Below are positions 11,541 to 45,764 of a DNA stretch of 64,000 bases, piece by piece; within the stretch, counting starts at the first letter, position 1; each line of letters opens with the position of its first letter. The stretch spans positions 1 through 64,000 of the forward strand of contig JYFJ02000552.1 of NCBI GenBank assembly GCA_000934665.2, read 5' to 3'. The stretch is from Catajapyx aquilonaris (lineage: Eukaryota). The notes under the pieces are model-generated. The model had not been told where the DNA came from. It ran no database searches and saw nothing but the letters and a program-made list of their open reading frames with translations. Both the position numbers and the translations under genes were made by a program.

Positions 11541-13670
11541 TCATAAATTGGGCAAAAACAGGTCGTCCAGCCACGAGTCCATGTTCTGGTTTGGTTCCGA
11601 GAACAGGTTTGAGCTTTCCTCCAGACACTGGTAAAATTCCTCGTTGTCCGTCCTGCTCGACGCTTCGTTGTCTCCTGCAGCCGACGAGCTCTCGTCGTTG
11701 CTGCTGTCGTACAGAGACACTGGGCTGTACGTGTACACCATCTCAGGAGGGCTCCTGTCCAGCGAGTTGCCCAGGACGGACAGAAGGTCGTACCTCGGAC
11801 TGGAGTTCCCCTGCTGACTCGGACCCAACAGCACCGACAGGTTGGGGATGTTATAACCCGTGTCATTTGGGCTCGCGTCACTTCCTGTCACTGAGATCTC
11901 AGGGGTGCTCATTTGAACCTGATCCTGGTGGCTCCCAGCCCAGCTATGTCTTTGGGAAGTATCTGATGAGAAATAAACAGGACGCATGTAATTCGATGTA
12001 TAGCATACACTGCAGGTGTTTCTCTAGTTAAAGCGGTAATAATGAACTGAAGATGCTCAATCTAATATAAGCAAACAAAGCTATCCCCAGGTCAATCCCA
12101 ATGTTTATTATGTAAATAAATCTGATGCGCGTACTAACTGATCTGGTCGTCTCCAGCGGCAGAAGCAGCAGCAGTTCCGACGGACAAATGTCGGTTCCTG
12201 TACTTGCGTATGTCGAATTGCGTGTAGGGACTGAGGTTGAGGTGTCCCAATGCCTCCTCCAGTTCTTCGACGTCACCTGGTTGCAGAAACACGTTGTCCT
12301 CCGTGTGCAGGTCGCTTATCTCCTGCAGGTCGCTCAGTTTCGATATGTACTTGGGAAACAAAACGGAGGAATTACGCCGACCGTATCGCCACTCCATGTA
12401 CCTGAAATTGACAAAAAGTTGGTAAGTCGCATCCAATACCCATGGGGGCAAATTAGCCTTACTTTTTGAGTATGAGGATGTATTTCTCCTGCAATGTTGA
12501 GACGCGGGCAGGGTCTGAGAGGCCTTCTCTTTCAGGGCAGAAGACGAGGAGCAGGATGAGGAGCATTATGATGGGTCTGTCTGGTCGAAGCTCCTGCATG
12601 CCCCTGATGAACCTCAGGTTGAGCTCGTATAGTTCAGGCACCAGCAGGCTCTTCAGTCCGTCCATCTCCAAGGCCACGGGGACTATCGCTTCCTATGTTG
12701 AAAGATGAGACACTGATGCTGAGAATGCTCATAGAGCTACTGCTTGGATGATGCTGCTTACCTGCTCTCCCGTGTGCAGGTACTGCGGTATGACATAGTA
12801 GTCCTTGTCCTTGTCATATGCGAGGGAACCAACCAGGAGACAAATCTCGAGCACAGCTGCTCGGATGAGGATCTGCTGGTCCTCTGGAGACAACGTGGCG
12901 AAAGATGGCATCATTTTCACCACGTGGTTGTATCTCAGGATCACCTTCGTGAACATGTGCGTCACCTGAAATAATTATTCACACTTTTTTTTTGGCTGAA
13001 CTATTTCGGGACCAGAGCAACTTATGTGAGAGGTTATTTCACAGCAAATGAAAATGTCAATCACCCTTTTACAGTATTTCTTCCCAAATTGTGTCAGATG
13101 AATGAACTGACCCTTTGCCCCCTCCTGGTCTCTTCATCGAAGGGGTACTCCCTTATGGACTCGGTGACCTTTGCCAGAAGGTACTGGATAACCATCTGCT
13201 CCTCCTTGTCCAGGAACTCCGGAAGCATCTTGGTGTCCGGGACGTGCGGCTCCAGCGTCCTCTTTCTGACGGACACCACCACCTGCGAGGACAGTCTCTT
13301 CTTCTCCAGCCTGGCTTTGAACCTCTTCCTCTCCTCCTCTCCCATCACCCATCCAGGTTCCATCCCTATGCTCAAACACTTTTGGAACCTGCACTTCTTG
13401 CACCTCTTTCTCCTCATCAGGGTTATCTGTCACCGTAAGATAATAGGGCTTGCTTTACTGGGCATGCAACCTAATATCACTTACCTCGCAGTTATTTCCG
13501 AACGTGCACACGTACGACTTGTACGTGTCGCCATGGACAGCTCTGAGGAAAAAGGCTTTGCAGCTGTCGCAGGAGAGTCCTCCGAAGTGGAAGCTCTTGG
13601 CTCGATCCCCGCACACGCCGCATATCTTGACAGGCTTCTCCGAATGGACAACACCGTATTTACCTGCCAT
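11541..13670 (-). CDS. Nuclear hormone receptor NR-A, NR1 family (HR96/HR97-like), about 539 aa
   Basis: Exons 13670-13485, 13426-13112, 12965-12762, 12692-12463, 12401-12139 and 11962-11541, in phase. C4 DBD CGVCGDRAKSFHFGGLSCDSCKAFFLR...CKKCRFQKCLSIGM; LBD signature KMMPSFATLSPEDQQILI; acidic tail. Confidence 0.9.
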
Positions 13671-13875
13671 TGTTGACCTGGCTAACTGGCCATGTGAGCC
13701 TGACGAGTGACGACCAAGAGTGTGAGTCGAGCTGTGGCCAGGCGTATTTGGCACAGCAGCCTAGCCCATGACGCCACTACGAAAGATAAAAAAAGGACGA
13801 TAACAACAACTACAAGATAACGCACGTAAGTGATTATCTATCTAGCAGTTTATTCAGTCTCGATCAATCAGAGTG

Positions 13876-16083
13876 TTAAATGTTTGGCGGCAACAGCAAG
13901 TCATCTATCCAAGCAAGGTCGCCCTCAAGGACACCTTTGTCCTCCAAAGTTTCTTGCTTCAGTTCAGGACAGCTTTGCAAGTCATGGAACCAGCTCTCCT
14001 CGCGGAATTCAGGAGTGTTTATGGATCCTTCGGACGAGCTCGTTGTGACGGAATGATGCGCACTGGTGTCCTCTTGGTCGTATAAGAATCCGAAATAGAG
14101 AGACGGGTCACTAGGACCAAATGGATCATCGCAAAGAATTGATCCATCAGGCGCAATGGCTGCAGGATAGTCGATGGGAGATGTTGATTCCTCAGGAGGA
14201 GGAGAGGCGGTTGGGTCGGATTGGAAAGGGCAAAGGGCATCTGTCTGTTGCGATTCACACGATGCATCTGCGGGAAGAAACACAGATTAAAGTTGTTTTT
14301 AAACTGCACATGAGCAAAGACAAGGGCATCCGTATCGCCTTTCAGTGTCATCATCTCTAGAGTCGAAAAGCGGACTTGATGCGAGGCAAAGAAGCTACCG
14401 GTAGCTTTGATATGAGCCTCTCGAGAGTTTAAACCATTCCCAACTGATGGAAGTGTATTATTTGTTACCATTGATTCCGGGCGACACGGGCCCATCAGCT
14501 CCGTACTTGCTGATGTCAATATGCTTGTAAGGGTTGAGACTGAGTTGTCCCAGCTTCTCCTGCAGTTCTTCCACGTCTCCTGGACCCAGACGCACGTGCT
14601 CTTCGGTGTAGTAGTCGCTCAGCTCCTGCAGGTCACTCAGTTTGGTCAGGAATTTGGGGAACAGCGTGGTTGCTGCACTTGCGCCGTACCGCCACACAGT
14701 GTACCTTTGTTCAGAATGAAGAGAGTGGAGCGGATCACTTTTGTGAGGAATTCCCATCATCACAGCTTACTTCTTCATGATGATGATGAACTTCTCCTGC
14801 AGGGCGGAGACTCTGGCAGGATCGGACAGCCCTTGTCGTTCGGGACAGCAGAGGACCAGGATGCCCATCAGCAACAGGATTCTGGCGTCGGGTTTCAACT
14901 CTTGGAAACCGCGGATGAATCGCAAGTTCTTCTCGTAGAGTTCGGGTGACATGATTTTCTTCATTTCCTCAACTTCCATCGGGACAGGAACTATCGCTTC
15001 CTGTTTTAGACAAATAGAAAATCAGTGAGTGATTCTTACTATAATCTGCATTCGAACCATTCTCTCTCTTATTCGCGTATGATCGAAGCAGTCCATTACC
15101 TCATTGTCCGACTTGGTGTACTCGTAGAGCAGATAGGTGTTACTGTCCTGGGCATAGGCACTGGCACCTGTGAGCAGGTACACTTCCAGTATTGCTTCTC
15201 GCATGAGTATGAGTTGGTCGTGTGCAGGCAGCGAAGCGAACGCAGGCAGGTTCCGGTTAACATGGATGCATCTCAGAACCACATTCACGAACACGTGCGT
15301 TGCCTGGAGTTAACGACAAGGCAACATGTTATTAGCAAATAACAAGTATCGTTCAGTAAGCACTGTCCATTCTAAAGAATTTTTTGTGTCACCAGAATGT
15401 GTTTCTGAATATGACCCACTGCACTCTGTTACCTTCTCTCCTTTTCGAGATGCAATGGCGAAAGGGTACTGTCGTATGGCATCTTTGAGGTTCTCTATCA
15501 ATGTCCTGACTGCATGTCTTTCTTCGTGGTTTAGGAATTCAGGGAGCCCAACCTTCTTCGGAGATGCGTCCAACGACCTTTTGGCCTCCTTCTTGGCCTT
15601 GAGTTTCTGCCTGTCCTCCTCGGACATGACCCACCTCACTTCCATCCCGTTCTTCAGGCACTTCTGGAACCGGCATTGCTGACATCCTCTTCTCTGGAAC
15701 ACCGATATCTGCCGAGAGAATATATATGCAGGGATACGAATATCATTGAACATAAATGGCATCAGAAGGACACATTGTGCGTACTTCGCATTTTCCGTTA
15801 TAGGCACATATGAATGTCTTGTAGGCTTCGTTCTGAACCGATCGCCTGAAGAAGGCCTTACAACTGTTGCAGGAGAAGCCTCCAAAGTGAAGGCTCTTGG
15901 CAAGGTCCCCGCACACGCCGCAAGCCTTCTTCTGGGTCCTTTCTAGCGACTGATAACCACGTAACGGGGAACTACCTGGATGGAGAGGGGTTTGCGTTAC
16001 TAAGCGTGACGTTTTCAATGGTGGTAAGAGATGGAACAGCACGTGACGAAATGCTCACAGATAGCTGGGGATTTCTTCCACAT
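13876..16083 (-). CDS. Nuclear hormone receptor NR-B, NR1 family (HR96/HR97-like), about 525 aa
   Basis: Exons 16083-16059, 15999(or 15975)-15785, 15708-15433, 15303-15100, 15000-14771, 14704-14469 and 14267-13876. DBD CGVCGDLAKSLHFGGFSCNSCKAFFRR; LBD RNLPAFASLPAHDQLILM. Confidence 0.9.
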
Positions 16084-16493
16084 CTGGGTTTTGTCAGCTG
16101 ATATCTTACACTGACAAGCAATAGCTCACATGCTCAACACAAAACGTATGGCAAGACCATTACGTCGCGTATGGGGATATAGTTTGTCTGGATCTGATGC
16201 GCTTATCGCATGCTTATCAAGCTCCGGCTTTTTATCACGTTACACTCTTTATTGGAAGTAGATAATGCCATCCAGTGTTAACTTTGCCTTCTAATTTTCA
16301 TACCTTGGCCTACTGAGCTGAAAATTGCCATTGCATTAATGTATGCAATGGTGATCAAAGTTTATCATAATGGATATTAAAAATTCATCGTGAATGTATT
16401 GTTTCAAACTATGAAGGGTAAAGAGTAAACTTCAGGCATGAAATTGCAATAACCAACGTAAGGCCATACCCAAGTAAGCCAAACAAATCACGT

Positions 16494-18555
16494 TTATTGT
16501 TTAAGTATTGGTAAGAACAAGTCGTCGATCCAGGCAAGATCGTGGTCTTCTACCAGCTGTCGATCTTGATGTGCAATCGTCGTCTCCTCAGGACACGAGT
16601 CCACCTGAACAGAATTTAGGATGTCTTGAAACCAACTATCCTCCCGAACATCAGGAGTGTTGATGGCACCATGTTCCTGATGACAGCATTTCTTCCCATC
16701 ATCTTCTGTGCATCCTCCTTTATCTATCTCCTTACTGTCGGCATCATGTTGCCCACTGCTCGAGTAAAACGAGCAGGCAGAGAGGGAGTTGTCCAGGTCT
16801 TCCAGCAGCAGCAAGGAGTCGTCCGGTACGCAACAGTCTTTGCTAGAGCCATCAGGATCGAGTTGGCCGATGATGTCTTGTAATGTCAACTGGTCACAGG
16901 AGGCACCTGCTCAGTGATATTCCAACCTGAGCCACAGCAGTACATTTCAACAAGAATAGAAGCATCAACTGACCTGTGCTGAAGTGTGCCTGTTGATGTC
17001 TGGTCTCCTGGTAGTGATCGATGTCGAACTGTGTGTACGGGTTGAGGTTGACTCTTCCAAACTTGTCGATTATCTCTTCTACATCCCCTGGCTCCAGATG
17101 CACATTCTCTTCTGTGCAGGAGTCGCTCAGCTCCTGCAGGTCGCACAGTTTGGACAGGTACTTGGGGAACAGCAAAGAAGAGTTGCACCTGCCATGACGC
17201 CAATCGATATACCTATAGAGCAGAAGAGGGATGAAGTAGAATACAGCTTGGGCACTATGACTCAGGAAGAAGCTGGTATAGGATTTAAGAAAATGCCTAA
17301 GGAAATTGTTACGCATCACTTTTTGAGTATCTGGGCGTATTTGTCCTGTAGGACAGCTATTCTGTCAGGATCGCTGAGGCCTTCTCTCTCCGGACAAAAG
17401 AGGATCAGGAGATCCAGGAGCAGGACGATGGGCATGTCCGCCTTCAGCTCCTGCATCCCCGCCAGAAAAGACAGGTACAGCTCGTACAGCTCAGGGGACA
17501 TTATCCTCTTCATCTCGTCCACCTTCATCGGGACTTGGACTATGGATCCCTGATGGCAAATGCACAAAATAACAGTAGCACACCATGAATCATCATGCAG
17601 AGTATTATTGTTGCCTATACCTCCGCGTCACTCTTGACGTATTGGAGAAGAAAGTATGTGTCGGTGCCCCTGTCGTAGGCGCAGACCCCAGTCATGATAA
17701 ATATCTCTAGGATGGCTGGCTTCAGGAGGATTTTTTGGTCTTGTAGTGGAAGGGAGCCAAACGAAGGCAGCTTTCGTAGCACATGTTTGCACCGAAGGAT
17801 CATCTGAGACAGAACGTGCGTCGCCTGAGGAATATATAGGTTGGACTATATTATTAGACAGAGAGGGGGGAGAAGAGAGAGAGAGAGAGTACAACTTGCC
17901 CTCTGTCCCTTCCTGGTATCCTCCGTGTACGGGTAGCATCGAATAGCTTCTTCGATATGATGTAACATGCATCGCACGACCGACTGCTCCTCTTCGTTCA
18001 GGTACTCGGGTATCTTGGACACCTCTGGAGAGTATGGCCCTATCTCCGACGCTGCCGACGACGACTCCGACGTCGCCCTTTTGGCCACTCTCTTGGCCTT
18101 CATCCTCTCCTTCTCTTCCTCCGTCATCAGCCAACCAGGCTCCATACCAATGCTGCGACACTTGGCAAACCGGCATCCCTTGCACAACTTCCTGCTAGGC
18201 ACTGTTATCTGGAATGCAATGCATGCTTGCAAAATAATAATTCGCACATTTTAAATGAAGTTGCAGTCCTATATACCTCACACCTTCCGTCTTTGATGCA
18301 GGCGAAGGACTTGTATGCCCCGTGTCTGACTGCTCTCCTGAAGAAGGCCTTGCAGCTGTTGCAACACACTCCTCCGAAGTGGTAGCTGTAAGCAATGTCC
18401 CCACACACCCCACATGGTTTCGGGTTCTCTACTCCAACACGGGGTGGACTGCAGATCTCGCCTGAATAAAAGGGGCTATCATGAGATATATCAGATCAGA
18501 CATCAGAGGGAATCAAAAAGGTCCACATACCAACAGGTGTAAATTTTCTCCACAT
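16494..18555 (-). CDS. Nuclear hormone receptor NR-C, NR1 family (HR96/HR97-like), about 534 aa
   Basis: Exons 18555-18531, 18461-18277, 18208-17900 (GC donor), 17824-17621, 17549-17320, 17212-16974 and 16906-16494. DBD CGVCGDIAYSYHFGGVCCNSCKAFFRR; LBD RKLPSFGSLPLQDQKILL. Confidence 0.9.
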
Positions 18556-19513
18556 AGCTTTAGGTGTCAGGAGTGACAAGGTACACCCAAATAATTCAGT
18601 CCTCAGAAGTATAGAAACTGCTGATACATCAAGTTGCGTCCCAGTTCAGGCGTGGCTCGAATGTTACACTTGCTTAGCTGCTATCTCGCCACTGCGCTCG
18701 AGATATCGTCGCGATAACAATGTGATAACACCAGTGGCCCATTACGGTCACACCAAGCAAATATGGATGTAATATTACTGTATAATTATAACACATTTTA
18801 CTGTCGGCTATACGTGTAGTGCTATATCCCTCACATGGATGGCGCATCTTCCCTCTCTGCACCCTATATACTGCATTATTCATTTTCCAGCAATAAATTC
18901 ATCCCTTTTGAGATTCCTGGTCCATTGTGACGTATAGGGTTCCAAATTTCCAAAAAGGACACAGCTGCTGCTATGTATTGGCTATATCAAGAGCTAATGG
19001 CTATATGCAATGCATACGTACTGTACGTACAGTTTAATGGATATTCCTTTTTACTTCACGATAACCGAAGTACCTACACAAATTACCAAATTATTGTACT
19101 TAACACTTAACACTTAAAGCACCTAAAAATGTAAAATAAATCAAACGTGTTTTATAATGAGCTGAAGTTGAAAAATATTTGTAAAATGCAGTAGAAAATA
19201 TTATAAAACTGATGCTATTTTGTGGTAGACCTGTTCAGTGTTCTGAAATAAATTTTCAAAACGTATACTGATGACATTGCAGTAGGCCTACCTGGCTGGT
19301 GTAAATGGAGCCAATAAAAATACGTCAGCGGTTAATAATTTGTGACCTTCAGTTCCCGAACTTTTCAGCAGTTCTAGTACAGCCCAGAAAATTTATTTAA
19401 TAGCACAGTACAAGTATATTTCTTGTCAGTCATTATAAGCCTGTCTTGCTGTGAATCTGGCGCCCTTATTCTTTACCATAAGTACATGTGAGAGAGAGCA
19501 GGAGTATATCGAA

Positions 19514-19580
19514 GTAACGCAGTGGTCTAGTGGTTAAGACGCTCTCCTCGTAACCTGAAGGTTGAAGGATCGAATCCTGA
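19514..19580 (+). repeat. tRNA-derived sequence (SINE head or tRNA pseudogene)
   Basis: A-box-like TGGTCTAGTGG (19523-19533) and B-box-like GGATCGAATCC (19567-19577). No intact acceptor stem seen. Confidence 0.45.
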
Positions 19581-19716
19581 AAAAGAAAAGACGTCGTTTC
19601 ATTTTTATCGCTGTAACTTTCTCTCTGCCTTACTTTACTTCGCATTTCTCATTTATTTCTCTTTGAAGTGCATCTGGTAAATAGGCTAGACCCTTCCAAC
19701 ACACACACTCTCGGTG

Positions 19717-19790
19717 CACCAGAGCGTGGTTCTGAGGTAGCGCATCGGACTCTCAATCGGGAGATGCGGGTTCAAATCCCGGATCTCCTT
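19717..19790 (+). repeat. Second tRNA-derived sequence
   Basis: A-box-like TGGTTCTGAGG (19728-19738) and B-box GGTTCAAATCC (19769-19779) at tRNA-like spacing. Confidence 0.4.
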
Positions 19791-19913
19791 GGTTGAGAGT
19801 CAGAAAAAAAAAAATTTGCAGCCGACATCTCTGGCCAAGATGGCGGCTGTTTCTTCGCAGTTTCCCCAACACTTCTTCAGAGGTGTGACAGGGAAGAGGG
19901 GAGAAAATTTTTT

Positions 19914-21122
19914 GGAAATTTTTAAGACACCTGCTTAATGGGAGGGGGCGGTCACTTTTTTCGAAGAAAAAAGTCAAAAATATAAAAAGTCAATTAAATG
20001 ATCAAGTGGCTTCGCTTGTGTTGTCCATCCCGGCAGCCCCCACCCTACGCACCCCATAGTCCCTACATTTGTCTTATACCTGGGTGTTCCATTCTCAAAC
20101 CTATCACCCCTCCAAATATTTAACCCTACAATTTAAACTATAGGTCCTATTAAATCACCAGCACATGCAAATGATTCGGCACAATTTTTAGGTCAATTCC
20201 AATGTATTGTTGCAGCCTGACCTTTGACCTGAAAGGCCCTAATATTAGGTTTTTGGTCAGGGGCCAGGCCCTACCTCGGTCTCCATCTGTCGGATCTCTC
20301 GTAATGAGACTGTACAGAGCACAGTAGGCTACATGCTGCACAGTAGTATGCCCCTAGCTAGCCAAATGTAGCAGTCCGCCTCTCCTGCTGGCAAGCGGGG
20401 CGGGGGTGGAAAGGGGGGAATATGGAAGGTCATAGAGAGAGACAGGAAGGTGACCAAGCCTACACGAAAATTCGCCTATCTACGTAAAACCGGGTCGACG
20501 ATCCGCTCGTCTCCTCCCACAGCAGAAGCGGGTGGGGATTTATTATTTTATTAATCCATAGAGCAATGCCACGAAGCAGTTGATGCCGAATGTCCGTCCT
20601 GATGACCCCAAGGAGGTGACGATGACCACTCGCCTACGTCACCTTCATACCAACTACGTTGGCTAGGTCATATACTACTATACTTCGCATCGAGAGATAT
20701 ACTGTATATCTATGTACTGTGCTCTGTACAGTCTCATTACGAGAGATCCGACAGATGGAGACGGAGGTAGGGTCTGCCCCCAGACCAAAAACCTAATACT
20801 AGGGCCTTTAAGGTCAAAGGTCAGGCTGCAACAAACCATTGAAAATGCCCTAAAAAGTGTGCTGATTAATTTGCATGTGCTGCTGATTTGACGGGACCTA
20901 TAGTTTAAATTGTAGGGTTAAATATTTGGAGGGGTGATAGGTTTGAGAATGGAACTCCCTAAGACAAATGTAGTCACTATGGGGTGTGTAGGGTGGGGGT
21001 TGCCGGGATGGACAACACAAGCGAAGCCACTTGAACATGTTACAGACTTTTTATTTTTTTGACTTTTTTCTTCGAAAAAAGTGACCGCCCCCTCCCATTA
21101 AGCAGGTGTCTTAAAAATTTCC
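19914..21122. repeat. Long inverted repeat (about 410-bp arms, 390-bp spacer), likely a non-autonomous element
   Basis: Arm 19914-20326 is the diverged reverse complement of 20715-21122, e.g. ttaagacacctgcttaatgggagggggcggtcacttttttcgaag versus its mirror at 21070-21114. Confidence 0.85.
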
Positions 21123-21689
21123 GAACTTCTACCCGTAGAAATTTTGATGACCTTTTCCTGATCCAGCACTGACACGTGATCACAGGAGGGGTAAAGAAAT
21201 CTCAAACTCCTGATCCAATTGATTGCCATGTTCATCTCTAAAGAATAATATTTCTGAACTGTTATTGCGCCAGTTGATTCTTGTGCTCCAATCGGCTCCA
21301 ACACTCTTCGGCTTGGACGCTGACCTCACCTGGGTCTCCACTGTTGCTTTGAAATATGTTATTGGAGTGTTGGAAAGCAAGCAGAGTTGCTACCTTGTGC
21401 ACAACATTCCCAACCCTGGATTTCATGACCATTCCTGCAATTTTGTCTTGTACTAATATTGGCAGTGATGGTTTGAAGCCCTAAATTACTGTAGTTGAGA
21501 CAAGAAATAATTTACCGCCTGAATTTATTTTCAAAACCTTCACAAAGTCGCAAAGTGCAATGGTATAATCGAATCAGTTATTACAAAAAGGGCTTAAGTC
21601 CACTGATCTAGAGGAATAAATTATTATGCTTGTCCCTGAAATATTTGGTACTTACAACACAAGATAATTCATGCGAGTTTTATTATTTT

Positions 21690-24001
21690 TTACACATTTG
21701 GTAGGAACATGTCATCGATCCAGGAAAGATCACTGTCATCCGCCAACTGTCGATTGTGATGTACAGTCATTGTCTTGTTGGGACACACATCCACATGAAC
21801 AGAGTTTTTCAGATCGAGGAACCAACTCTCCTCCCGAACATCAGGAGTGTTCACAGCCTCATCTTCCTGATGAGGGCATTTCCTCATCTCATCTCCTGTG
21901 CATCCTCCTTTATCTGGCGCCTTACTGATAGTTTCATTTTGTTCATCGCTATCATTGTTGAAGTGTTTAGAGTAAAATGAGGAGGCAGAGAGGGAGTGGT
22001 CCAGGTCTTCCAGCAGCAGCGAGGTATAGTCCGGTACGCAACAAGCTTTGCTCGAGCCAGGATCCAGTTCCTTGATGATGTCTTGCAATGTCAGTTCGTC
22101 GCAGGAGGCACCTGCGCAGTGAGATTCCAAGCTGAGCCACACAGCAGTACATTTCAACAAGAATATAGAAGCACTGACCTGTGCTGCAGTTTGCCTGTTG
22201 ATGTCTGGTCTCCTTGTAGTGGTCTATGTCGAACTGTGTGTACGGGTTGAGGTTGACTCTGCCCAGCTTGTCGATTATCTCTTCCACATCGCCTGGCTCC
22301 AGATGCACATTCTCTTCTGTGCAGGAATCACTCAGCACCTGCAAGTCGCACAGTTTGGACAGGTACTTGGGGAACAGGAGGGAAGAGTTGCGTCTGCCGT
22401 GGCGCCAATCAATGTACCTGGAGCAGAAGGACACAGATAATTCTGGAGAATGGAAGGGCACTCATTGTATTTGCGAAAGTTGCATTATGATGTAAATGCA
22501 GCCTCACTTTTTGAGGAGAAGGATGTACTTGTCCTGCAGGGCAGCTACTCTTTCAGGGTCACTGAGGCCCTCCCTATCTGGGCAGAAGATGATGATGAGG
22601 CCAAGTATGAAAATGATGGGCAGGTCAGCCTTCATCTCCTGCATCCCAGCCAGGAAGGACAGGTACTGCTCATACAGCTCAGAGGACATTATCCTCTTCA
22701 TCTCCTCGACCTTCATCGGAACTTGGACTATGGATTCCTGAAGATGAAAAATGTGGGCTTACCGATTCATATGAGATCAGTAATTCAGTATTGGAACCCT
22801 CAAAGATGTTTTGTTATACCTGTGCGTCACTCTTGACAGATTGAAACAAGAGGTACGTGTCAGTGTCTCTGTCATAGGCTCTGACGCCTGTCAAGATGAA
22901 TATCTCCAAGGCAGCTGGCTTCAGGAGTATTTTTTGGTCTTCCACGGGTAGGCAGGCAAAAGGAGGTAGGCTTCGAAACACATGCTTGCACCTAAGGATC
23001 ATGTTCGACACCACATGGGTCGCCTGTGGAATGTATGCAATCTTAGTGCTGAAAACCGCTTAAGAAACCCCAAAATGTCGTCAAGAAGAATGCTTCTGAA
23101 TTCCTCCGAGGTTCTACTTTAGCCATTTAACATGCATAAACTTCGATATCTGTGGCTTTACCATAAATATTCATTCACCCTGAATAAGTCATATTTTGAT
23201 ATCTTCGTGTTTTTTTTCGTCATACTATTTTCATTCTTTTCTACTTGATTTTCACCCTGAGTAGACCTACTGTAGCTGAAATATTTTTAGAAGTCCTTTA
23301 GGATTCATATGATAATTATTATTTTCATAGATTCTCATAACTGCTGTATAGTGGCCAACTTGCCCTCTGTCCCTTCCTGGTCTCCTCCATGTATGGGTAG
23401 CACCGAATGGCTTCTTCGATATTGAGTAACATGCATCGCACAACCAACTGTTCCTCTTCATTCAAGTACTCGGGTATCTTCGACACATCTGGACAGTATG
23501 GCACCTCCTCCAACGACGACTCGGACATGGCCCTCTTGGCCACTCTCTTGGCCTTCATCCTCTCCATCTCTTCCTCCGTCATCAACCAACCTGGCTCCAT
23601 ACCAATGCTGCGACACTGGGCGAACCGGCATCCCTTGCACAACTTCCTGCTAGACACTGTCATCTGGAATGCATTCTTCTAAGTAATTTGCATTGGAATT
23701 AAGTTGCAGGCCTACCTCACACTTTCCGCCTTTGATGCAGATGAAGGATTTGTATGCCCCATGTCTGACTGCTCTCCTGAAGAAGGCCTTGCAGCTGTTG
23801 CAGGACACTCCTCCAAAGTGATGACAGTAAGCAATGTCACCGCACACCCCACATGGTTTTGGGTTCTCTATGCCAACACGGGGTGGACTGCAGACCTCAT
23901 CTGAATTTTTTAAGAAGGGCTATAATGAGACGTCCGGCCAGATCATGAAGTGAGAAATTACATACTAATCAGCACTTACTGACAGATATTCTCCGCAGCA
24001 T
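21690..24001 (-). CDS. Nuclear hormone receptor NR-D, NR1 family (HR96/HR97-like), about 533 aa; closest paralog of NR-C
   Basis: Exons 24001-23980, 23900-23716, 23663-23364 (GC donor), 23023-22820, 22737-22508, 22417-22179 and 22111-21690. DBD CGVCGDIAYCHHFGGVSCNSCKAFFRR. Confidence 0.9.
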
Positions 24002-25184
24002 CTCTCTACACACTTTGAAGAAATGCAATGGGCACAGTACTGTTACCGACTGCCGGGGGGAAATAATGCAAATCCTCAGGAGCAACTGCTGATGTAGAAA
24101 ATGCTGCCACAGTGGGTTATCTTTGGTTATGTGCCTACAACTACTGAAATACTATCTTGTCTTGTGATATCCCAATGTGATAACATGTGATTGACTTGTG
24201 TCTTGAATTCCACTGGCTCATGCCTTCCCAGATTGTGGTAGTACGTGGATCAAGTTCACAATCCAATAATATATCCAATAATAGACTTTGAGATTGTCAG
24301 TTATTATTGGTCTATTATTTCCTCACCACGCATACAATAGCAAAGAGGCAAAAGTGCTTATTATCATTTGCATTAATTTAAATGATAGTCTCTAACAATG
24401 AAGGCTTGAATCCCCCTCTTGGTGCAAGAGTCTGGTTTCTTGAACCCATGCCAAAGGAATCTCTTCTTCTTTTCCTTGAATAACAGGGATCTACACAATA
24501 TATTCGCCAAATAAAGTGAGGTGAACCATTTCCTCAAGAAAAATGCAAAAAAATATATCAGAGAAAACTGTCAAATATCAAATATATTGGGTACCTTATT
24601 ATTTTACAATAATTGAGCAAACTCCTTTTTCCACAGTTCATAATAATTGCACATTGTTTTGATAATACCGTACTTTTATCTACTGTACTTGTATGTACAC
24701 AGTTTAATGTCACGTGAAGAATTTTATTACCACACTTGATATCATACTGAGCTGTTTGTCACTGTACATTACCAGAGCACCAGGTAATAATGTTCATTAC
24801 ATAGGCGTTGATGGCAACCCCAACAATAAATTCTAAGTGCAACAATCCACAACACCAGTAATGAAGTGCTCTACTAGGGGATTGGGTGGAGTTAATATCT
24901 GCCAGTAATTGCCTGGTTGATAATTCAATTTACACTCTACCTGTATCTCTTACGTTAGCAGCAACTGACAGTTGTTCCACCTTATTTCTGTGGTGATATA
25001 GAGAGACAAGAGAGATCTCATGCACTAACAAATGGGAACCATCTGAAGCATTCCGAACAGAGACAGAGAGCAGGCAATCAGAAGCACATCCTGCAAGAGC
25101 TGCACGAGGTTGGATGCTCAGGTTGTTCCCATTTAAGGCACTTACAAGGTCATATTTCGAACTTTGCCAGTATTTTTAATACTC

Positions 25185-28100
25185 TCACACGTCTTCTGAA
25201 AACAAGGATAAATCTGGCAGATACAAATCACCTACCCATGACAAATCATCATTCAAGAAATCAATGTCTTGAAATGTGATTGGTTCTGAAAACAAGCCTG
25301 TACTGTCATGGAAGTCATTGGCATCATCTGAAAGTTGGTGGCCTTCATCAATGTTTTCAGACATGTCAAAGGTAAAGAGCGAACTATTATCGGGACTGTA
25401 CTCTTCGTTGACTGCATCAGACGCACCATGTTGTTCATGCTGGCCATCAGGGCTTGCTGCTGGCAATGGGCTGATTGAGAAAGAATTAGTTTCCTCGCTG
25501 TTACCATTTCCTAAATTAAGGAACGAGTCAACGAGAGAACTGCTTGGCAGGCTTGAATCTTCCGGCAATATTCCATCTTGCGAGCACAGCAACAAGGCCA
25601 TATCTTCATTCACACCACCAAGATCCAAGTTTTGAAATGCTTCCGAGGCAGAAGTGGTGCTATCGGTCTGTCTGACACCATCAAACTGGCCCGCACTACT
25701 GCATATTCCGATAGTATCAGACTGACTGTTGCTGTCACCCAGGCCAATACTATCACTTATGCCAACACCATCCAACAGGCCATCACTGTCACACTGGGCA
25801 ACCCTCTCGCACATTCCAATATCTGGTAGACCACTCGAGTCCCACTGGCTGATCATGTCACATACGTCGAATGTGTCCAACAGGCCAATACTGTTAGCCG
25901 GACTAATATCATACTGATTATCTGATCCATCTATGCCATCATTGGAGACACTTGGAACTATTTGGAGGGCATTTTCACTTTCCAATGGTTGAGTACTAGT
26001 CTTGTCCTGCTCAATGGCATTCAAGAAGTAATTATCACGTTGGCGAAACACACTTTTAATCCTAGTGAGCAATGTCTCGTCCAGTTGGAAATACTGAGAG
26101 TACTCCTTTCCGACCACTTCAATCACTCCACTCGACATACCTGGTGAAGAAGAAAAAATTACTAGTATTGGAAAATATTTAAATATTGCAAAGGCTGTAA
26201 AACTAGCCTATCAGTTAAAATTAGTGCAACTACCCAATATTATGGATTCTACCTTCTTGTCATCACAATTACATTTGAATGTAATGTACGCGTATATTTC
26301 ATTCATTACTGGCTTCCCAAAAGATGATACTAGGCCCAGAATTATAGCAAGATGTAATAATAAAATGCACTGTCGTGCCCCAACCATTCCGTTCATTTGA
26401 CAGCCCCGGCCGAGCCTTGTATTTGCATATGTCAAACTGCGTGTATGGGTTGATGTCCAGCCTCCCAAAAGCCTCCTGCAATTCCTCCACGTCTCCAGGT
26501 CCCAGGCACACATTGTCCTCTGTATGAAGGTCGCTCAGCTCTTGCAGGTCACTCAGTTTGGTCAGCAGCTTTGGAAACAGCAGTGAAGCTCTACTGCACC
26601 CATACCTCCACTCCATGTACCTGAAAAAGTGTGGGTTCTATGAGACAGTTCCCATTGAATAAACCACAGATAATAATCACATATTCGGCATACTTTTTGA
26701 GTATGAGTATGTACTTGTCCTGGCAGGCAGAAACGTGGGCGGGCTCCCGGAGTCCAGTGCGTTCAGGGCAAAATATGACCAGAAGACCCAGCAGCATTAT
26801 GGTATGCTGGTCAGCCTCCAAGGCTTGGACTCCTTGGATGAACCTCATATTCACTTCAATCAGCTTCGGCGACATAATTTTCTTCAGCTCTTCCATCTTC
26901 AGTGACACCAACACTGTTGTGTTCTGCAACCAACAACAAAATATTACATTTGTACATTATGTGCCATAAACTGGGCATCCAATAATTATATTATGATATT
27001 GTGGGATAATTTGGTGCTTTATCTGTTCAGAAGGCTGTCGCAGAAGATGAGTCATGCTGCGGAATCTAATCTTAAACACTTCAAATACTCTGGCCATTAA
27101 TTAACTTTGTCATGCACTGATATGCAAAAAACAAAGCCACAACTTAAGTTGGGTTCATGCAAGTATCATTGCCTTTGTTTTTAGGTCACTGTGGTTGGGA
27201 GATGCCCATCTTGTTGTCAGGCAAGTTGGTCCAGATTGAGAGGAGTCTTAACCACAACAATCCAAATAGAGAGACTCCCATGTGCACCAAGCTTGAACTC
27301 ACAATCAGAAAGTACCCAATGACTCCGTACCTCTGAGGTGGTTGGTTACATTTTTATTTCTCGCTGGATGACCCGAAGCTAAGTATCCCAAGTACTCCTC
27401 AAGGCCCTGTCCCATGCAGCACTTTCACGTCTAGGCAGTTGTCACATTGTGTATAAAATACCAGAAAGGTGTATACTTACAGTGTCAGGTAAATATTGCG
27501 AGATGACGTAGTAGTCGTTTTCCTTGTCGTAGACAAGGGCTCCCATAAGGAAACATATCTCGAGCACCCCTGCCCGGATCAGGATTCGTTGGTCCTCTGG
27601 CAGCAGAGCCGAAAATGACGACAGCATCCGAACCATGTGGTCACATCGGAGTATCAGTTTCCCAAACATGTGAGTTGCCTGAAACATAATAGACTGTAGA
27701 ATATGGAAACATCCAAAAAACAAAACTGAATTTCAAAATGAAATGTTCCGAATCACTAATTATCGAGAATCTTTGTACATTGCATGCCCCCTCTCGTTAG
27801 GTCTGCGTATTCAGAGTGTTTCTTACTAATATGTCAGCATACTTTGCCGGCCAGACAACATACTAGTACGAAACACAACCTGCTGTTAATGCAATATGTC
27901 CAGTCCCATAATTTTTCCAGTGATTTTGTGGGACTACATGGGTTGTACAGTCCTATCAATTTTACCTTATGTCCTTTGGTTTGCTCCGAGAAGGGATACT
28001 GTCTTATTGATTCAGCCACTGTTTCCATCAGCTCCTGAATCGCTTCCTGCTCCTCCCGGTTCAGAAATTCTGGCAGCCTCTTGGCATCAGGCTTGTAGGG

Positions 28101-28816
28101 TGTAAGCTCGACATGTTTGCTCGGCTGCACCTCCTGCACTCGCTTGTGGCTCTGCTTCTCCTTCATCCTCTTCCGCTCCTCCTCCGTCAGAACCCATCCC
28201 GGCTCCATCCCGATGCGACAACACTTTTCATACCTGCATTTCTGGCAGCACTTGCGCTTCAGGACAGTCATCTGTAAAAGTGCAAATGAATAAGTGCGTA
28301 GCAAGTTCCCAAGAGCATGCCGAAACATACTTCGCAGCTTCCATCAAACGCACAGGTGTACTGCCTGTGCGCTTCGTGCTGCACTGCCCGCCTGAAGAAG
28401 GCCTTGCAGCTGTCGCACGAGAGGCCACCGAAGTGGAAGCTCCTGGCGTGGTCACCACACACCGCGCAAGGTTTGTGCCGCACATGCCCACTCTCTGTAA
28501 CCGCAATTGATTAATAGACACTGATCATATAAAACATGCCAATCACTACATCTAGTATGAATGGTCTGCATGGCTTCTTCCTGCGCCATCCTCACTTTTC
28601 CTCTTTCCAGCGACCGGCTCTTGGCCCTTGTCCATTGTGGTCCCAAGAGGAGGTCTTCTGCATTAGAGAGGAGAGGTGGAGAAAACGACGCAGCTCCAGC
28701 CGTGACCTTGTGTCCATCCAAGAGGGTCATGGGGGCAGACATGTTGGAAATTGTGACGTCACGCAAAGAGCAAGGTGGCCAGGTGAAGACCCGCCATTCC
28801 ATTCAAACTTACTCAT
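25185..28816 (-). CDS. Nuclear hormone receptor NR-E, NR1 family (HR96/HR97-like), about 697 aa with an extended acidic tail
   Basis: Tentative 4-nt first coding exon ATGA|GTAAGT (28816-28813), then exons 28494-28331, 28271-27966, 27678-27481, 26923-26694, 26620-26385 (weak donor) and 26140-25185. DBD CAVCGDHARSFHFGGLSCDSCKAFFRR. Confidence 0.85.
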
Positions 28817-30761
28817 TTCTACGCACATCTTATTGCTGAGGACCACGCAACGAAATTGCCCAAAACAACAACCCAGAGCTAGTGTACTCACTGGTGTTTA
28901 TTGTCTCCATTGACGCCTCATTGATGGCTTCCAGAGCCTGCTGGTAATACAGTTTGGATCTTCCACTGCTGATGTCAATTGCAACAATTCTCAAGGGCAG
29001 CCCGTTTGGCGTTCATCACTGGCTGCTTTGCAACTTGCAGAGTGACGCAATGCTTGATCGCTAATAATTGTGAGCACCAGCCGGAACGCAATAAGAAATG
29101 ATCACGACAGAAAAAGGCACATCTTGTCTGGACAAAAGTTGATAACCCGAGGTGATAATGATGAGATAAGTGTGTGGCGCAATATTATTATCACAAAGGG
29201 TAAGTCTATACAAGTGATTTGTCTGCTGCCTGTCAAAAAAATGTCAATAAGCCGCCGGAATTAGTGTCAATTGCGCAAAATAATAACATGTTAATAAAAT
29301 CTCAATTAATACAAAGAGTGGTACAAAATTATCTTTATTATTAGACTACTTACATAAAAGGCAAGCGTTGTTTGTTTGTCATAGGCCCTAATGTATGGGT
29401 ATGAAATGGGTACAAAAAAACAAAATTGCTGTTATTATAAAAGGCAATATTATCCCCATCAATTGATTCAATAAAACAATTCTTATAGAGTATGGCATTT
29501 TCCCATCCATTTCCAAGACACTGACATAAGCTTTTCAATATTTTAGAACTTGACTTATTGAGTCAATTGAGAGAATATTTCAGCCAGAGTTTGCGATATT
29601 TCAACCCGTGTAAAATTTTAGCTGTATAGAACCACTATTAGATATTAAAGATGTTGGCCTACACATTACGCGTAAATGACGTAGACCTAATTATTACGAT
29701 ATTACCATGGCCTCCAGTGCAGTTACATCTACTGCAATTGATATTGTGCTGCTTATGCCAAAATGTCTGGTAATATGCGCCACTTCCCGTCAAATTAGAT
29801 CATTCGTGTTTACACGATCATCAGGCTGCATATCAGAAGTTATTGTGCAACCTGCAGCACTTTTCTGATGACCATAACACACAGGTGGAACATGCGACCA
29901 GTGGAATTCAGACAGATTTTGTCAATATAATTATATTATATCACGACAGGCATCCTGAGATAATGCGTCATGATTTTCGTGGACGTATAAAGACAGTTCC
30001 CGGAACTTCATTTCTTTGTGTCTTTGTGACTCTGGAGCCGGTGTGTTTGGATGAAATCTCAGTTTTATCCCGATCATTTAGCAAAGCGGATATGCGCCAG
30101 GAGCTAAAATGAGTCAGTCAAAAACTGATGGATGGATATCGATGGACCATTACGAAAGTGTCGTTGCAGTAGACACACAGGGTATAGGCCTAGGCTACAT
30201 GATATCTTAATATTTTTCTGAGTGATATGAACCACTTTTTGATCAAAATTGAGTCAGATGATTGCTGACTGGAATATTTCATTTGAAGTTGGTGCACCTT
30301 TCACATTCGTCAAGTAATTTTCAGTCAACAATTCAAGCGGAAATGTATATAGTCACAAAACTTGGTTTATCATTTTTGATCACCTAATGCGTCTGAGTTT
30401 GAAAAACCCACCAGTACAGTGAATTAGTTGTGGACTGTATCGCTCACGGAAGAGGATGTGACACTCGGTGAGCACCTCGGATGCGTTATTTTCAGGTGAT
30501 TGTATAGGATGAGGATTGAGTCATGTGAGATGACATGAATGGGCTCGCATGATGAACTATAGAACTATACGGGGCGCATTGTTTTTACATGAGCAACTAT
30601 AGCTAGACACGCTCATTTGCAGGATATTTGGAGAGGATGCAAGGAAGGTGATGGGGGAGGGGTGTGAAGTCTGGCTGAAAAGTCATGCGCAGTATTTAAA
30701 AGAGTGCTGGCCCCGAACCTGTACTTCTCAGTCAAATAATATTATATACCAGCCTTTAATC

Positions 30762-37917: not shown

Positions 37918-38140
37918 TACGAGGGCCAGTCAAACAAACTGAGACTTATTATTTATTATTTATGTTATAAATATACAGAGAATAAATCAGTTCATGACGG
38001 TGAATGGGATCGTGCTCAGAATGGATTGAAGTACGAAAACACCGATATTCTTGATCGAATATTCCACGATCCCAGGCGAGGTGACACCGGGGTGACATAG
38101 GTTCACCAATATTCAACCGTTGAAGTTTTGCTTCCATTTG
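37918..38140 (-). mobile_element. Possible internally deleted mariner-like relic
   Basis: TACGAGGGCCAGTCAAA resembles a mariner terminus, and minus-strand MEAKLQRLNI resembles a mariner N-terminus. The second terminus was not found. Confidence 0.3.
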
Positions 38141-40558: not shown

Positions 40559-40648
<90 letters not shown>

Positions 40649-42555: not shown

Positions 42556-45500
42556 TCATACATTAACTGAGAATAATCTTTCAAGCCATGACACCTCATT
42601 GTTCAGGAAATCTGTGTCCTCAAAGGTGAATTGTCCCGACACCACATCGGGGACATTTTGAAGATCTTGGAAGAAATCACTGTTGTTGTCAAAGCCGTGA
42701 CATTCTGAGCAGTTATTTTCACTTCCATATGACCCATCTGAAGTAACGGGCACATTATTGGGATAAGTCAAATCAGAATAATAGCCATCAAATTCAGTAG
42801 TGTTGGCAGCAGCACTATCAGGGACACAGTACTGCTCATACCGGTCATTACTTCCATTATCTGATGTTTCGTGGCTCACTTGTGAATATGACACTGATGT
42901 CGTACAGTAATTGACAGACTCGTTTTGTTTTTCTGCACAGCTTGCTGAGGAATTGTCTAGCGTAGGCACAACATTTTCCAAGTCACACTCGAAATTAGGC
43001 AAGAAAGAAATGTCAAAATCTTCAAATGTGGCATCTTGAATGGAGTCAACTAAGGACTCGTACCCCAAAAGTCCATCCGTAAATGTAGTTGATCCTTCAT
43101 CAGAAGCATCTGTAAGGGTTTTAAAAATTATGATAACTTGCTGTTTCAGTGCTAGGCTTCATTTTCAAACATATGAGAGTATGATTGTAATGTACTTGTA
43201 CAAATAAATATTGTAAGTGACTTTCAAATCTTCAATATTTTTCCGTTTAATAGTTTTCTTGTAAAATAAAACTTGTCGACTGATATTTACGTTAATTTTT
43301 TTACCACACTGAGTTTCCCCAAGCACATTCCATATTGATATAAACTTTGCCAGTCATTTAACATGTGTGAGGCGGGAAGACAAACAATAATATATATTCT
43401 ACACACACTGTGCAGGGGTTTGCCATTTCAATGGATAGTAACAACTAATAAGAAGGCATACTGACCTGTGCACATGTACTCTTTATTTGTTGATGTGTGC
43501 CTGACTTTGTACTCACACAGATCAAACTGTGTGTAAGGATTTACATTGAGGCTGCCAAAAGCCTCCTGCAATTCTTCAACGTCATTGGAACCCAGGCACA
43601 CATTATCTTCAGTATGCAAATCGCTTATTTCTTGAAGGTCACTCAGTTTTGTCAGCAGTTTTGGAAACAACACAGAAGCATTTCGAGGACCATACTGACA
43701 TTCCATGTACCTTAACGAGAGAAAAAAAAACTTCATATGACATTTAATTTAATGAAAAATTACATTATGCCTAGGTCAAATGAGTTGAATTCACACCTTT
43801 TCAATATGAGTATGTATTTCTCCTGAATAGAGGACACTCGCTCAGGGTCAGATAGTCCGGCACGTTCAGGACAGAATATTACGAGAAGGCAAAGAAGCAT
43901 TGATGTTTTCTGATCTGGTTGAAGGTCCTGGAAGCCTTTTATGAATTTCCTATTTCGTTCACACAATTCTGGCATCAACACTTTTTCCAGTTCTTCAATT
44001 TCCAGTGTCACAGGAATCCATTCTTCCTACAGAGGGGTTGGGAGAGAGAACAAATAATTATGCATAAGAGAATCTGTATAAAATCTTGCCAATTCATAAT
44101 ATGCCACCTTCCTGTTCCGCTTTTCAGTTGGTAAAACAATGGACCAGAGAAAAACCATCAAAAGTTATGGGAACGTTTACCTGTCAGTACAGTTCAACTA
44201 CTGAACTGTCCAGTTAGAGCTTTGTTAAAAATCACAATTAGCTGCAAATTTCAATGTATTTTCTTACAAATACTTTCAGAGGTTATCGAAAGTAGGTATT
44301 AGTTGTTAATACAAGGTCAATTACTATTAGTACAGATAGTAATAGATGGCGGTCTTATGAGTCCAACCACTGACATTCGTTTGTAACCATTCAGACAAGC
44401 CCAAGGAAGCAGCATGGGGTTCCGCACACTGCGTTAGAACATGTGGTTTCAGTCTATTGGGATCAGGGCCACGTGTAAAGGCATACATAATGTGCAAATT
44501 AAAGCTTAACTAGTTCATTCAAGTGGTCTTACCTCCGTATCATGTACATATTGTGGTATCTTGTAGTAGTTCTTTTCTTCATCATAGTTGGCAGCCCCCT
44601 GAAGGAAGCAAATTTCAAGAATCCCTGCTCCTAGTAAAATTCTCTGATCCCCAGCAGATAATTCAGCAAATAACGGCAGCATCTTGATCATGTGATTGCA
44701 ACGCAAAAGGAGCTTTGCAAGCATGTATGTTGCCTAAGAAATCATATTATACAATACGTATTACAATATTAAATACCCTAGACAAAGGGTTTCTAATTTA
44801 GTACAACAAACTTCTACTGTTAACTCCTAATCAGTAGTTGATAACTTCATGTAACGTGCAGGCCCTCTCCACAATTTGGTTAACTGGAGAGGTAAGATCA
44901 TAATATTTACGACATGCAGTTTTACCAATGGCACAGTTAATCACTGTCAAAAACCTTTTCAGAAGAAATATTGGCAGATTTACTGCAGCGGTGCTTTTAT
45001 CTACAGCAGGCACAGTCTGTTTGGCGTTACAACAAAAATGGACTTACCTTCTGTCCTTTCCTCCTTTCTGCTGAAAGTGGATATTGCTTTATAGATTCCC
45101 TGACTGTGGTCATTAATTCATTGATTACAACCAATTCCTCCTCGCTAAGAAATTCTGGCAATTTCTGAGGGTTAGGATTGTATGTCTCCAACTCCTTTCT
45201 TCGTAAAGGCTCTGATTTTTTAAGATCTTGTTTGGACTCCTTCAGTTGCTTCCTCTCATCTTCACTGCGGACCCAGGCAGGCTCCATGCCTATGCTTCGA
45301 CAACTGTCGAAACGACAACTTTGGCAACACTTGCGCCTCAGAGACCGCATCTAATTTGAGACAAGCATTTAGGAAATTGGTTATTAAGTCTCTATACTTG
45401 CATAAAATCCATTCAATATACCTCACAGTTTCCATCAAAAGCACATATGTAGTCCTTGTACAATTCACGTTGCACAGCACGTCGGAAGAAGGCCTTACAG

Positions 45501-45764
45501 CTGTCACAAGATATGCCACCAAAGTGATAACTTCTGGCACGATCTCCACATACGCCACACACTTTATGACGTTTTGATTTTCCAGCAGATGGTGTTGAAG
45601 TAACTGTCAATTTTGAGATATTAAGGTGACTATCAACATATTGTATGAAAATGGTTTTCTTTATTACTCACTACTTCAATGATTCAGTGATTTCTCATCA
45701 CAGAAATGATTACAACAAATAAGAAGAAAAAGGCAGACTTACCAGCATTGACTTTAGTTGCCAT
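42556..45764 (-). CDS. Nuclear hormone receptor NR-F, NR1 family (HR96/HR97-like), about 578 aa
   Basis: Exons 45764-45743, 45603-45422, 45350-45048, 44733-44533, 44026-43797, 43710-43466 and 43109-42556. DBD CGVCGDRARSYHFGGISCDSCKAFFRR; LBD KMLPLFAELSAGDQRILL. Confidence 0.9.

What the first reader, a model, noticed from the sequence alone, without database searches (positions are those of the whole stretch)
11541..45764. Tandem array of six intact, divergent HR96/HR97-like nuclear receptors
Seen: six co-oriented genes with a C4 DBD and an LBD, shared intron positions and phases, an invariant 230-nt LBD exon, and no stops or frameshifts in the models. C and D look like the youngest pair, and B shares their MW-type first exon and N P-box. 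Known: NR1I/J receptors (VDR/PXR/CAR, HR96, DAF-12/NHR-8) are sterol and xenobiotic sensors, and HR96 is single-copy in most insects. From memory the DBD resembles the crustacean HR97 (NR1L) group, which needs checking. Inference: a lineage-specific expansion diversifying ligand sensing.
Basis: partly seen in the sequence, partly recalled or inferred. Interest (0 to 1): 0.8.

Follow-up and report, generated by a model that had tools for sequence, protein, structure and literature searches.

The report
HR97 receptor expansion in wingless hexapod
Six neighbouring genes are real, mostly transcribed copies of a little-studied hormone-receptor type (HR97) in what is probably a wingless relative of insects; such expansions are known from crustaceans, but these copies have remodelled ligand pockets and share an acidic tail that may switch genes on.

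Summary
The array is real. Six minus-strand nuclear receptor genes have open frames, shared intron phases and a 230-nt LBD exon. Contigs of one run bridge 12 of 29 modelled introns in A-E. They are HR97 (NR1L)-type, not HR96; a separate canonical HR96 lies elsewhere. With a seventh gene on another contig they form one clade (100/100), and no other HR97 locus was found. HR39 places the host outside winged insects but next to them, so it is probably an apterygote hexapod. NR1L expansions are already known (12 in Tigriopus, a tandem pair in Daphnia).

In gene A the only observed splice uses a donor 4 nt away from the model and removes that tail. Ligand sensing is inferred, not shown. The scan's notes hold no earlier HR97 finding.

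The parts
42556..45764 (-). Gene F, HR97-type receptor, 7 exons (45764-45743, 45603-45422, 45350-45048, 44733-44533, 44026-43797, 43710-43466, 43109-42556), 578 aa, D P-box
   Evidence: model; no junction data; a frameshifted second copy on contig C8228
25185..28828 (-). Gene E, 7 exons (28828-28813, 28494-28331, 28271-27966, 27678-27481, 26923-26694, 26620-26385, 26140-25185), 701 aa, D P-box, longest acidic tail
   Evidence: introns 2, 4, 5, 6 bridged exactly by X1 contigs
21690..24001 (-). Gene D, 7 exons (24001-23980, 23900-23716, 23663-23364, 23023-22820, 22737-22508, 22417-22179, 22111-21690), 533 aa, N P-box, GC donor at intron 3
   Evidence: intron 5 bridged with 26 letters on the short side
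16494..18555 (-). Gene C, 7 exons (18555-18531, 18461-18277, 18208-17900, 17824-17621, 17549-17320, 17212-16974, 16906-16494), 534 aa, N P-box, GC donor at intron 3
   Evidence: intron 6 bridged
13876..16083 (-). Gene B, 7 exons (16083-16059, 15975-15785, 15708-15433, 15303-15100, 15000-14771, 14704-14469, 14267-13876), 517 aa, N P-box
   Evidence: introns 3, 5, 6 bridged
11541..13670 (-). Gene A, 6 exons (13670-13485, 13426-13112, 12965-12762, 12692-12463, 12401-12139 or 12135, 11962-11541); 539 aa with tail or 400 aa without
   Evidence: introns 3, 4, 5 bridged, intron 5 with the tail-less donor
12133..12138 (-). Two GT donors 4 nt apart at the last intron of gene A: 12138 keeps the frame into the acidic tail, 12134 makes a stop at the junction
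   Evidence: joint 11962-12135; both donors weak, 2.7 and 1.8 bits against 1.0-12.5 for the other 34 donors
11544..11576 (-). Terminal W-x-D-D-L-F-L-P-like motif of A, intact though untranslated in the observed isoform
13879..13914 (-). Terminal tail motif of B
16497..16535 (-). Terminal tail motif of C
21693..21725 (-). Terminal tail motif of D
25188..25241 (-). Terminal tail motif of E
42559..42591 (-). Terminal tail motif of F (most diverged)

Best explanation
The single arthropod HR97 (NR1L-type) gene was duplicated repeatedly in tandem in one apterygote hexapod lineage, giving six genes here, a seventh on contig C23 and a frameshifted F-like copy on C8228 (shown). The copies are old and kept under purifying selection (shown for C/D). 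They have diverged in the two parts that set specificity: the P-box and nearby DNA contacts, and the ligand pocket, where the family's helix-5 Arg, helix-7 His and beta-turn Trp-Pro are replaced (sequence shown; effect on DNA or ligand preference inferred). They most likely work as DNA-binding transcription activators whose activation surface is the acidic C-terminal tail ending in an aromatic/hydrophobic motif, because the N-terminal A/B region is very short and helix 12 is non-canonical (inferred). The LBD would tune each copy with a different, probably neutral, lipophilic ligand rather than the fatty acid or farnesoate reported for Daphnia HR97 (inferred, weakest step). Gene A can drop the tail by a 4-nt donor shift, giving a form that binds DNA but may not activate (junction shown, role inferred). 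Step odds: HR97-type lineage-specific expansion about 0.9; tail is an activation domain about 0.55; paralogs differ in ligand about 0.45.
For: One clade of seven: 100/100, 95/96 under a mixture model. Mean identity to 20 HR97-type proteins: DBD 57-65%, LBD 22-36%; to own HR96 47% and 25%. No further HR97-type locus in two genome searches. C/D dN/dS: DBD 0.25 (bootstrap 0.10-0.69), LBD 0.14 (0.09-0.22), tail 0.48 (0.28-0.77). 12 of 29 introns of A-E bridged, 11 exactly; a loose end matches gene G. Helix-5 Arg in 65 of 70 motif-bearing relatives, 0 of 7 here; RAR-beta has Arg at the aligned place (its role as acid anchor is recalled). 22 pocket-equivalent columns: diversity 0.51 in the paralogs against 0.46 in 24 relatives, other LBD columns 0.45 against 0.60; p 0.003, conservation-matched p 0.045. 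Tails: net acidity 0.10-0.17 against a median of 0.05 in 52 relatives; terminal motif in 7 of 7 and 0 of 52, 56% mean identity in the motif against about 19-31% over the tails of non-C/D pairs. A/B 14-26 aa. Similar acidic-hydrophobic motif proposed as activator in EcR-B1 (PMC2829036, passages).
Against: No ligand, target gene or activity was measured. The pocket set was taken from a recalled LXR-beta list and fixed after I had seen the column table, and the relatives are not independent, so the p values are soft; the matched test is borderline. No dN/dS above 1 was found, and dS is saturated for nearly all pairs but C/D. With only one HR96 as outgroup the root is unresolved: the seven fall sister to all other HR97s (91/86) or with the long Blattella branch. 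First exons are unconfirmed, so longer A/B domains are possible, and 4 of 21 relatives checked also have A/B regions of 11-27 aa. Four of 52 relatives (one cluster) have tails as acidic. The tail-less splice of A rests on one contig of one run, and the tail-keeping junction was not seen. Long F domains can repress instead (HNF4-alpha, PMC10438950, passages).
Confidence: 0.5

Rival explanations
1. The paralogs are ligand-independent factors that divided up tissues or stages; pocket changes reflect loss of the ancestral ligand and relaxed constraint, not new ligands.
For: All seven lost the same conserved polar pocket residues; no positive selection seen; Daphnia HR97 is reported to have basal activity and few activators (PMC12938566); HR97-type proteins of cockroach and locust have a degenerate or missing LBD.
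Against: The C/D LBD is the most constrained domain (dN/dS 0.14); the replacements differ between paralogs and include polar swaps at helix 11 (His/Cys/Tyr).
Confidence: 0.25
2. The terminal motif is an NR-box-like helix that folds back into the receptor's own coactivator groove (or recruits a repressor), so the tail is inhibitory and the tail-less A isoform is the active one.
For: The motif has the hydrophobic-x-x-hydrophobic-hydrophobic spacing of NR boxes (pattern recalled); the helix-3 basic clamp residue and groove are conserved in 7 of 7; the HNF4-alpha F domain represses and is tuned by splicing (PMC10438950).
Against: The whole tail is acidic with a second aromatic cluster about 35 residues upstream, which is the make-up of acidic activators; an alternative activator at the N-terminus is not evident.
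Confidence: 0.15
3. One reading: broad xenobiotic or sterol sensors like HR96/PXR, expanded to cope with soil or diet chemicals, as for HR96-like genes in spider mites.
For: Pocket divergence; precedent in Tetranychus (8 HR96 and 47 LBD-only genes, tandem pair controls detoxification genes; PMC10435515, passages).
Against: They are not HR96 (P-box, helix 12, identity); a normal HR96 is present; Daphnia HR97 is insensitive to many xenosensor ligands; no detoxification gene was recognised among the long ORFs of the window.
Confidence: 0.1

Closest known systems
Copepod NR1L expansion (Tigriopus japonicus HR97a1-8, HR97b1-4; PMC4247118, passages read)
   Same: Lineage-specific multiplication of HR97-type receptors with divergent LBDs beside a single HR96.
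   Different: 12 genes against 7 (+1 broken); tandem layout not reported in the passages read; these sequences were not among my named references.
Daphnia HR97a/HR97b (PMC2774871, passages read; reporter data via PMC12938566 and PMC7961072)
   Same: Tandem duplicates, P-box one residue off the HR96 form, long F domain; a branchiopod-clade relative has an intron at the same place as intron 3 here (one case).
   Different: Only two tandem copies with identical DBDs; Daphnia-type proteins keep the helix-5 Arg and lack the terminal motif.
Malacostracan MAR1-3 (NR1Q/R/S; PMC6599367, passages read)
   Same: Serial duplicates of HR97 with fast LBD divergence and extended F region.
   Different: MARs are unlinked, have three exons with the LBD inside exon 3, and are shared across decapods; the presumed MAR proteins form a separate clade.
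EcR-B1 DL-rich motif and VP16-type acidic activation domains (PMC2829036, passages read)
   Same: Acidic residues interspersed with Trp/Leu/Phe in a disordered region of a nuclear receptor.
   Different: That motif is N-terminal (AF-1); here it is at the extreme C-terminus. Resemblance only, no alignment or assay.
Tetranychus HR96 and HR96-LBD expansion (PMC10435515, passages read)
   Same: Tandem duplicates of an NR1 receptor in a small arthropod.
   Different: HR96-derived, mostly without DBD, shown to control detoxification; none of this applies here as tested.

Membership tests
HR97 / NR1L | C4 zinc-finger DBD plus LBD | tested here: met
HR97 / NR1L | First finger and P-box of HR97a/b type (H-F-G-G ... 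C-D-S-C-K-A), one residue off HR96 (PMC2774871) | tested here: met
   D in A, E, F, G; D changed to N in B, C, D, as also in one unnamed relative
HR97 / NR1L | Groups with HR97 and apart from HR96 in a DBD+LBD tree | tested here: inconclusive
   Closer by identity; 97/98 with two long outgroups, but the root falls next to the seven; grouping with mayfly or springtail HR97s not rejected (p-AU 0.10, 0.09)
HR97 / NR1L | A separate HR96 in the same genome | tested here: met
   contig C513, E P-box and canonical helix 12
HR97 / NR1L | Extended F domain after the LBD (PMC12938566) | tested here: met
   124-336 aa
HR97 / NR1L | Helix-5 Arg and beta-turn Trp-Pro (family-conserved in my alignment; not a published criterion) | tested here: not met
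   0 of 7 keep either
HR97 / NR1L | Weak activation by methyl farnesoate and pyriproxyfen, repression by arachidonic acid | not testable with these tools
   reported for Daphnia in PMC12938566
HR96 / NR1J | E-S-C-K-A P-box | tested here: not met
HR96 / NR1J | Protein ends at a canonical helix 12 | tested here: not met
   own HR96 does; the seven have a variant helix 12 and a long tail
MAR1-3 (NR1Q/R/S) | Three exons, LBD within exon 3 (PMC6599367) | tested here: not met
   6-7 exons, LBD spread over four
MAR1-3 (NR1Q/R/S) | Malacostracan host and membership of the MAR clade | tested here: not met
   host grouping with decapods rejected on HR39 (p-AU 0.014); separate clade (MAR identity of the references is my inference)
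Acidic activation domain | Net acidic, low-complexity region with spaced aromatic/hydrophobic residues | tested here: met
Acidic activation domain | Activates transcription when tethered to DNA | not testable with these tools
   needs a reporter assay

The most novel reading that the evidence does not exclude
These genes mark a hexapod branch of HR97 in which transcriptional activation moved to a C-terminal acidic tail, freeing the ligand pocket to diverge; the tail can be switched off by a 4-nt splice shift; and the same branch survives unrecognised in true insects as HR97-type DBD proteins with a decayed LBD (cockroach, locust, where a similar motif is present), against the printed view that insects lost HR97.
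Probability: 0.15. Interest if true: 0.7.

Novelty: new variant of a known kind. Interest (0 to 1): 0.42.

Why it matters
HR97 is an orphan receptor with almost no functional data. A compact set of seven old paralogs that differ at a handful of pocket and P-box positions is a ready natural series for asking what HR97 binds and how receptors change ligand. The tail motif and the splice switch give two cheap, direct tests. Separately, HR97-type genes in mayflies, a cockroach and a locust would correct the statement that the group is absent from insects. The expansion itself is of a kind already described in crustaceans, which keeps the score moderate.

Tried and rejected
No RNA holder listed: the one run found (X1) is not on record as RNA; I treat its intron-skipping contigs as spliced transcripts by inference, and use no depth figures. 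Parts without cover are not evidence. Structure prediction of CBP TAZ2 from the same genome with the tail of B: no verdict (score 0.01, controls not folded); it bears on nothing. Homolog search with the 230-nt exon alone found nothing. ESM Atlas with the last exon of gene G gave no usable hit. No extra receptor remnants between or beside the six genes or in 20 kb beyond the window. No overlap or shared sequence between the end of contig C23 (gene G) and the start of this contig, so linkage of G to the array is not shown. The 13264-28392 joint is rejected as a mis-laid contig of gene G (non-canonical ends; its loose end matches G). The tail motif in Blattella and mayfly proteins is not above chance (305 and 271 of 1000 shuffles). 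A DBD-only tree does not resolve whether the cockroach and locust proteins belong with the seven (p-AU 0.42). Li et al. 2014 (PMC4182176), the primary HR97 paper, was not held; its results are taken second-hand. Literature searches: 'HR97' alone gave 22 papers, 21 listed, none on hexapods by title or abstract start; HR97 occurred 0 times in the 25 listed; searches listed nothing on insect or apterygote HR97; PMC13449613 and PMC6938034 have no mention of HR97 or of nuclear receptor expansions in the terms searched. Supplements were not opened. My tree label for P0007 as the published crab HR97 was wrong (it is another accession). Rows dropped from trees: 10 partial or redundant rows, 12 more long or redundant rows.
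Full report
Observation. A six-frame scan found six pairs of C4 zinc fingers, all on the minus strand. Exon models give open frames of 578 (F), 701 (E), 533 (D), 534 (C), 517 (B) and 539 aa (A) with no internal stop, phases 1,0,0,0,2,1 (A has no modelled first intron), and a 230-nt LBD exon in all six. All introns are GT-AG except intron 3 of C and D, which is GC-AG. Distances from stop to next start are 205, 410, 3134, 1183 and 13727 nt. No further remnants lie between or beside the genes. DBD identity among the seven paralogs is 57-71% and LBD identity 44-64%, except C/D at 87% and 82%.

Transcription. One public run (X1, not on record as RNA) was laid on 11300-29000. Its contigs bridge 12 of the 29 modelled introns of A-E; 11 match exactly. 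The twelfth is the last intron of A: the contig skips 172 nt, using the donor at 12134, whereas the full model needs the donor at 12138. The observed junction forms a stop, giving 400 aa without the tail. Both donors are weak (1.8 and 2.7 bits) and the downstream exon still holds a 140-codon open frame with an intact terminal motif, so alternative use is likely but the long junction was not seen. Contigs drop rare variants, so absence is no evidence. A loose end matches a seventh gene, G. F was not covered by this test.

Rest of the family in the genome. Searches of the own genome (285.6 Mb) found the six, gene G on contig C23 and an F-like copy on C8228. G is intact (512 aa), has the 230-nt exon and a GC donor at intron 3, and lacks the last intron. 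The C8228 copy differs from F at 45 of 1735 exon sites and 84 of 1338 other sites and has a 2-nt deletion in exon 3 and +4/+2 insertions in the last exon: a broken allele or a young dead duplicate. A canonical HR96 lies on C513. By my count of distinct places the genome has about 30 receptor loci (a lower bound), so this group is about a quarter of them.

Family. The first finger retrieved 90 proteins, whose named members are mostly crustacean, springtail and chelicerate proteins with the same H-F-G-G...C-D-S-C-K-A signature; a profile of the helix 10-12 exon gave 48 hits, including spider, mite, centipede, millipede and springtail proteins and a few chance hits. The seven form one clade (100/100; 95/96 with a mixture model) with (B,(C,D)) inside. 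They are closer to HR97-type proteins than to the own HR96 (DBD 57-65% against 47%; LBD 22-36% against 25%). The root is not settled: with one long HR96 outgroup they are sister to the other HR97s (91/86) or join the long Blattella branch. So they are this genome's HR97 complement, expanded in its own lineage; whether they deserve a subgroup name is open. They are not MARs (exon structure, clade).

Host. The HR39 gene has insect best hits at about 60%. In a tree it is sister to winged insects (96/90) and outside them (83/87); grouping with decapods (p 0.014) or with Polyneoptera (p 0.021) is rejected. One weak odorant-binding-protein match and only one weak 7tm_6 match fit a non-insect hexapod such as a dipluran (odorant receptors are reported absent in Diplura and Collembola, PMC6938034 passage). 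No apterygote reference was in the tree, so the order is inference.

What has changed in these receptors. (1) DNA side: the P-box has D in A, E, F, G and N in B, C, D; A has Leu for an otherwise invariant Arg of the recognition helix and G has Val for Ala. (2) Pocket: the helix-5 Arg is present in 65 of 70 motif-bearing relatives (167 examined, many redundant, one match spurious) and in none of the seven, which have Q, M, T, T, T, V, A. The helix-7 His becomes N/Y/I, the helix-11 His is H/C/Y, and the beta-turn W-P is lost. Over 22 pocket-equivalent columns the paralogs are more diverse than 24 relatives, while other LBD columns are less diverse (p 0.003; matched for conservation p 0.045). The pocket list is recalled from LXR-beta, mapped through the alignment, and chosen after I had seen the columns, so this is supporting, not decisive. 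The coactivator groove and helix 10 are well kept. (3) Selection: C/D dN/dS is 0.25, 0.14 and 0.48 for DBD, LBD and tail; other pairs are saturated. (4) Tail: all seven carry a 124-336 aa acidic F domain (net 0.10-0.17; median 0.05 in 52 relatives, four of which, one cluster, reach 0.15) that cannot be aligned except for an aromatic cluster and a terminal W-x-D-D-L-F-L-P-like motif, present in 7 of 7 and 0 of 52. The A/B region is 14-26 aa in my models (first exons unconfirmed).

Mechanism. Shown: tandem duplication, retention, splicing, and divergence at specificity positions. Inferred: the tail is an acidic activation domain standing in for a missing AF-1 and a non-canonical AF-2 (about 0.55); the paralogs differ in ligand (about 0.45) and perhaps in response element; tail-less A competes for sites without activating. 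Rivals are ligand-free subfunctionalisation, an inhibitory tail as in HNF4-alpha, and HR96-like xenosensing. A complex prediction gave no verdict and is not used.

Comparison with print. NR1L expansions are known: 12 genes in Tigriopus (PMC4247118), a tandem pair in Daphnia (PMC2774871), MAR1-3 in Malacostraca (PMC6599367); all seen as passages. I found no paper on HR97 in hexapods; the library lacks most subscription papers and the primary HR97 paper. PMC12938566 (introduction and passages) states that HR97 is absent from insects, yet one search returned HR97-type proteins from two mayflies (full LBD, helix-5 Arg kept, placed among HR97s), a cockroach and a locust (DBDs form a clade, 99/94, and score higher against HR97s than HR96). 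The locust protein lacks a recognisable LBD and has a motif like the tail motif (second best of 327 proteins, 0 of 1000 shuffles, but picked by eye).

Verdict. Real, well-formed and lineage-specific, of a known kind, with three unreported features (pocket remodelling, terminal tail motif, splice switch in A) and a side observation on insect HR97. Interest 0.42.

Noticed in passing
proteins P0034, P0045, P0067, P0089: HR97-type receptors in true insects: two mayflies (intact LBD), Blattella germanica (degenerate LBD) and Schistocerca piceifrons (no recognisable LBD, tail-like motif), all under other names in the databases; contradicts the printed 'non-insect only' range.
   Followed up: partly
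L002 (G000:C8228): Second copy of gene F, 2.6% diverged in exons, with a frameshift in exon 3 and two insertions in the last exon; allele or paralog not resolved.
   Followed up: partly
L001:5922-7946 (G000:C23): Seventh intact paralog G, about 6 kb from the end of its contig, same exon plan minus the last intron; transcribed in run X1; a tandem 16-codon-like repeat in its hinge.
   Followed up: yes
window 23363 and 17899; L001:7103: GC-AG donor at intron 3 in C, D and G, while B (sister of C/D) has GT: two gains or a reversal.
   Followed up: no
window 19911-20326 and 20715-21125: 416-bp inverted repeat, 91% identical, around a 388-bp core between C and D; probably a non-autonomous transposon.
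   Followed up: no
window 55239-55703 (+): Fragment resembling a mariner transposase C-terminus (recalled motifs; no Pfam hit).
   Followed up: no
window 52046-53557 (-): 504-codon frame with at least eight C2H2 zinc fingers.
   Followed up: no
window 4200-5540 and 8811-9290 (+): Two glycine/serine/histidine-rich genes downstream of the array that look like secreted or cuticular proteins.
   Followed up: no
L010:5245-7992 (G000:C23): Long array of about 42-residue TPR-like repeats, broken across three frames, about 8 kb from gene G.
   Followed up: no
L015, L016, L017 (G000:C459) and L014, L018 (C1849): CBP-like sequence in two contigs; on C459 an intact TAZ2 exon is followed by a decayed TAZ-like copy and a KIX piece in unusual order, suggesting a partial duplication.
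   Followed up: no
L006:2258-3895 (G000:C172): HR39 with DBD and most of the LBD in one 545-codon open frame.
   Followed up: partly
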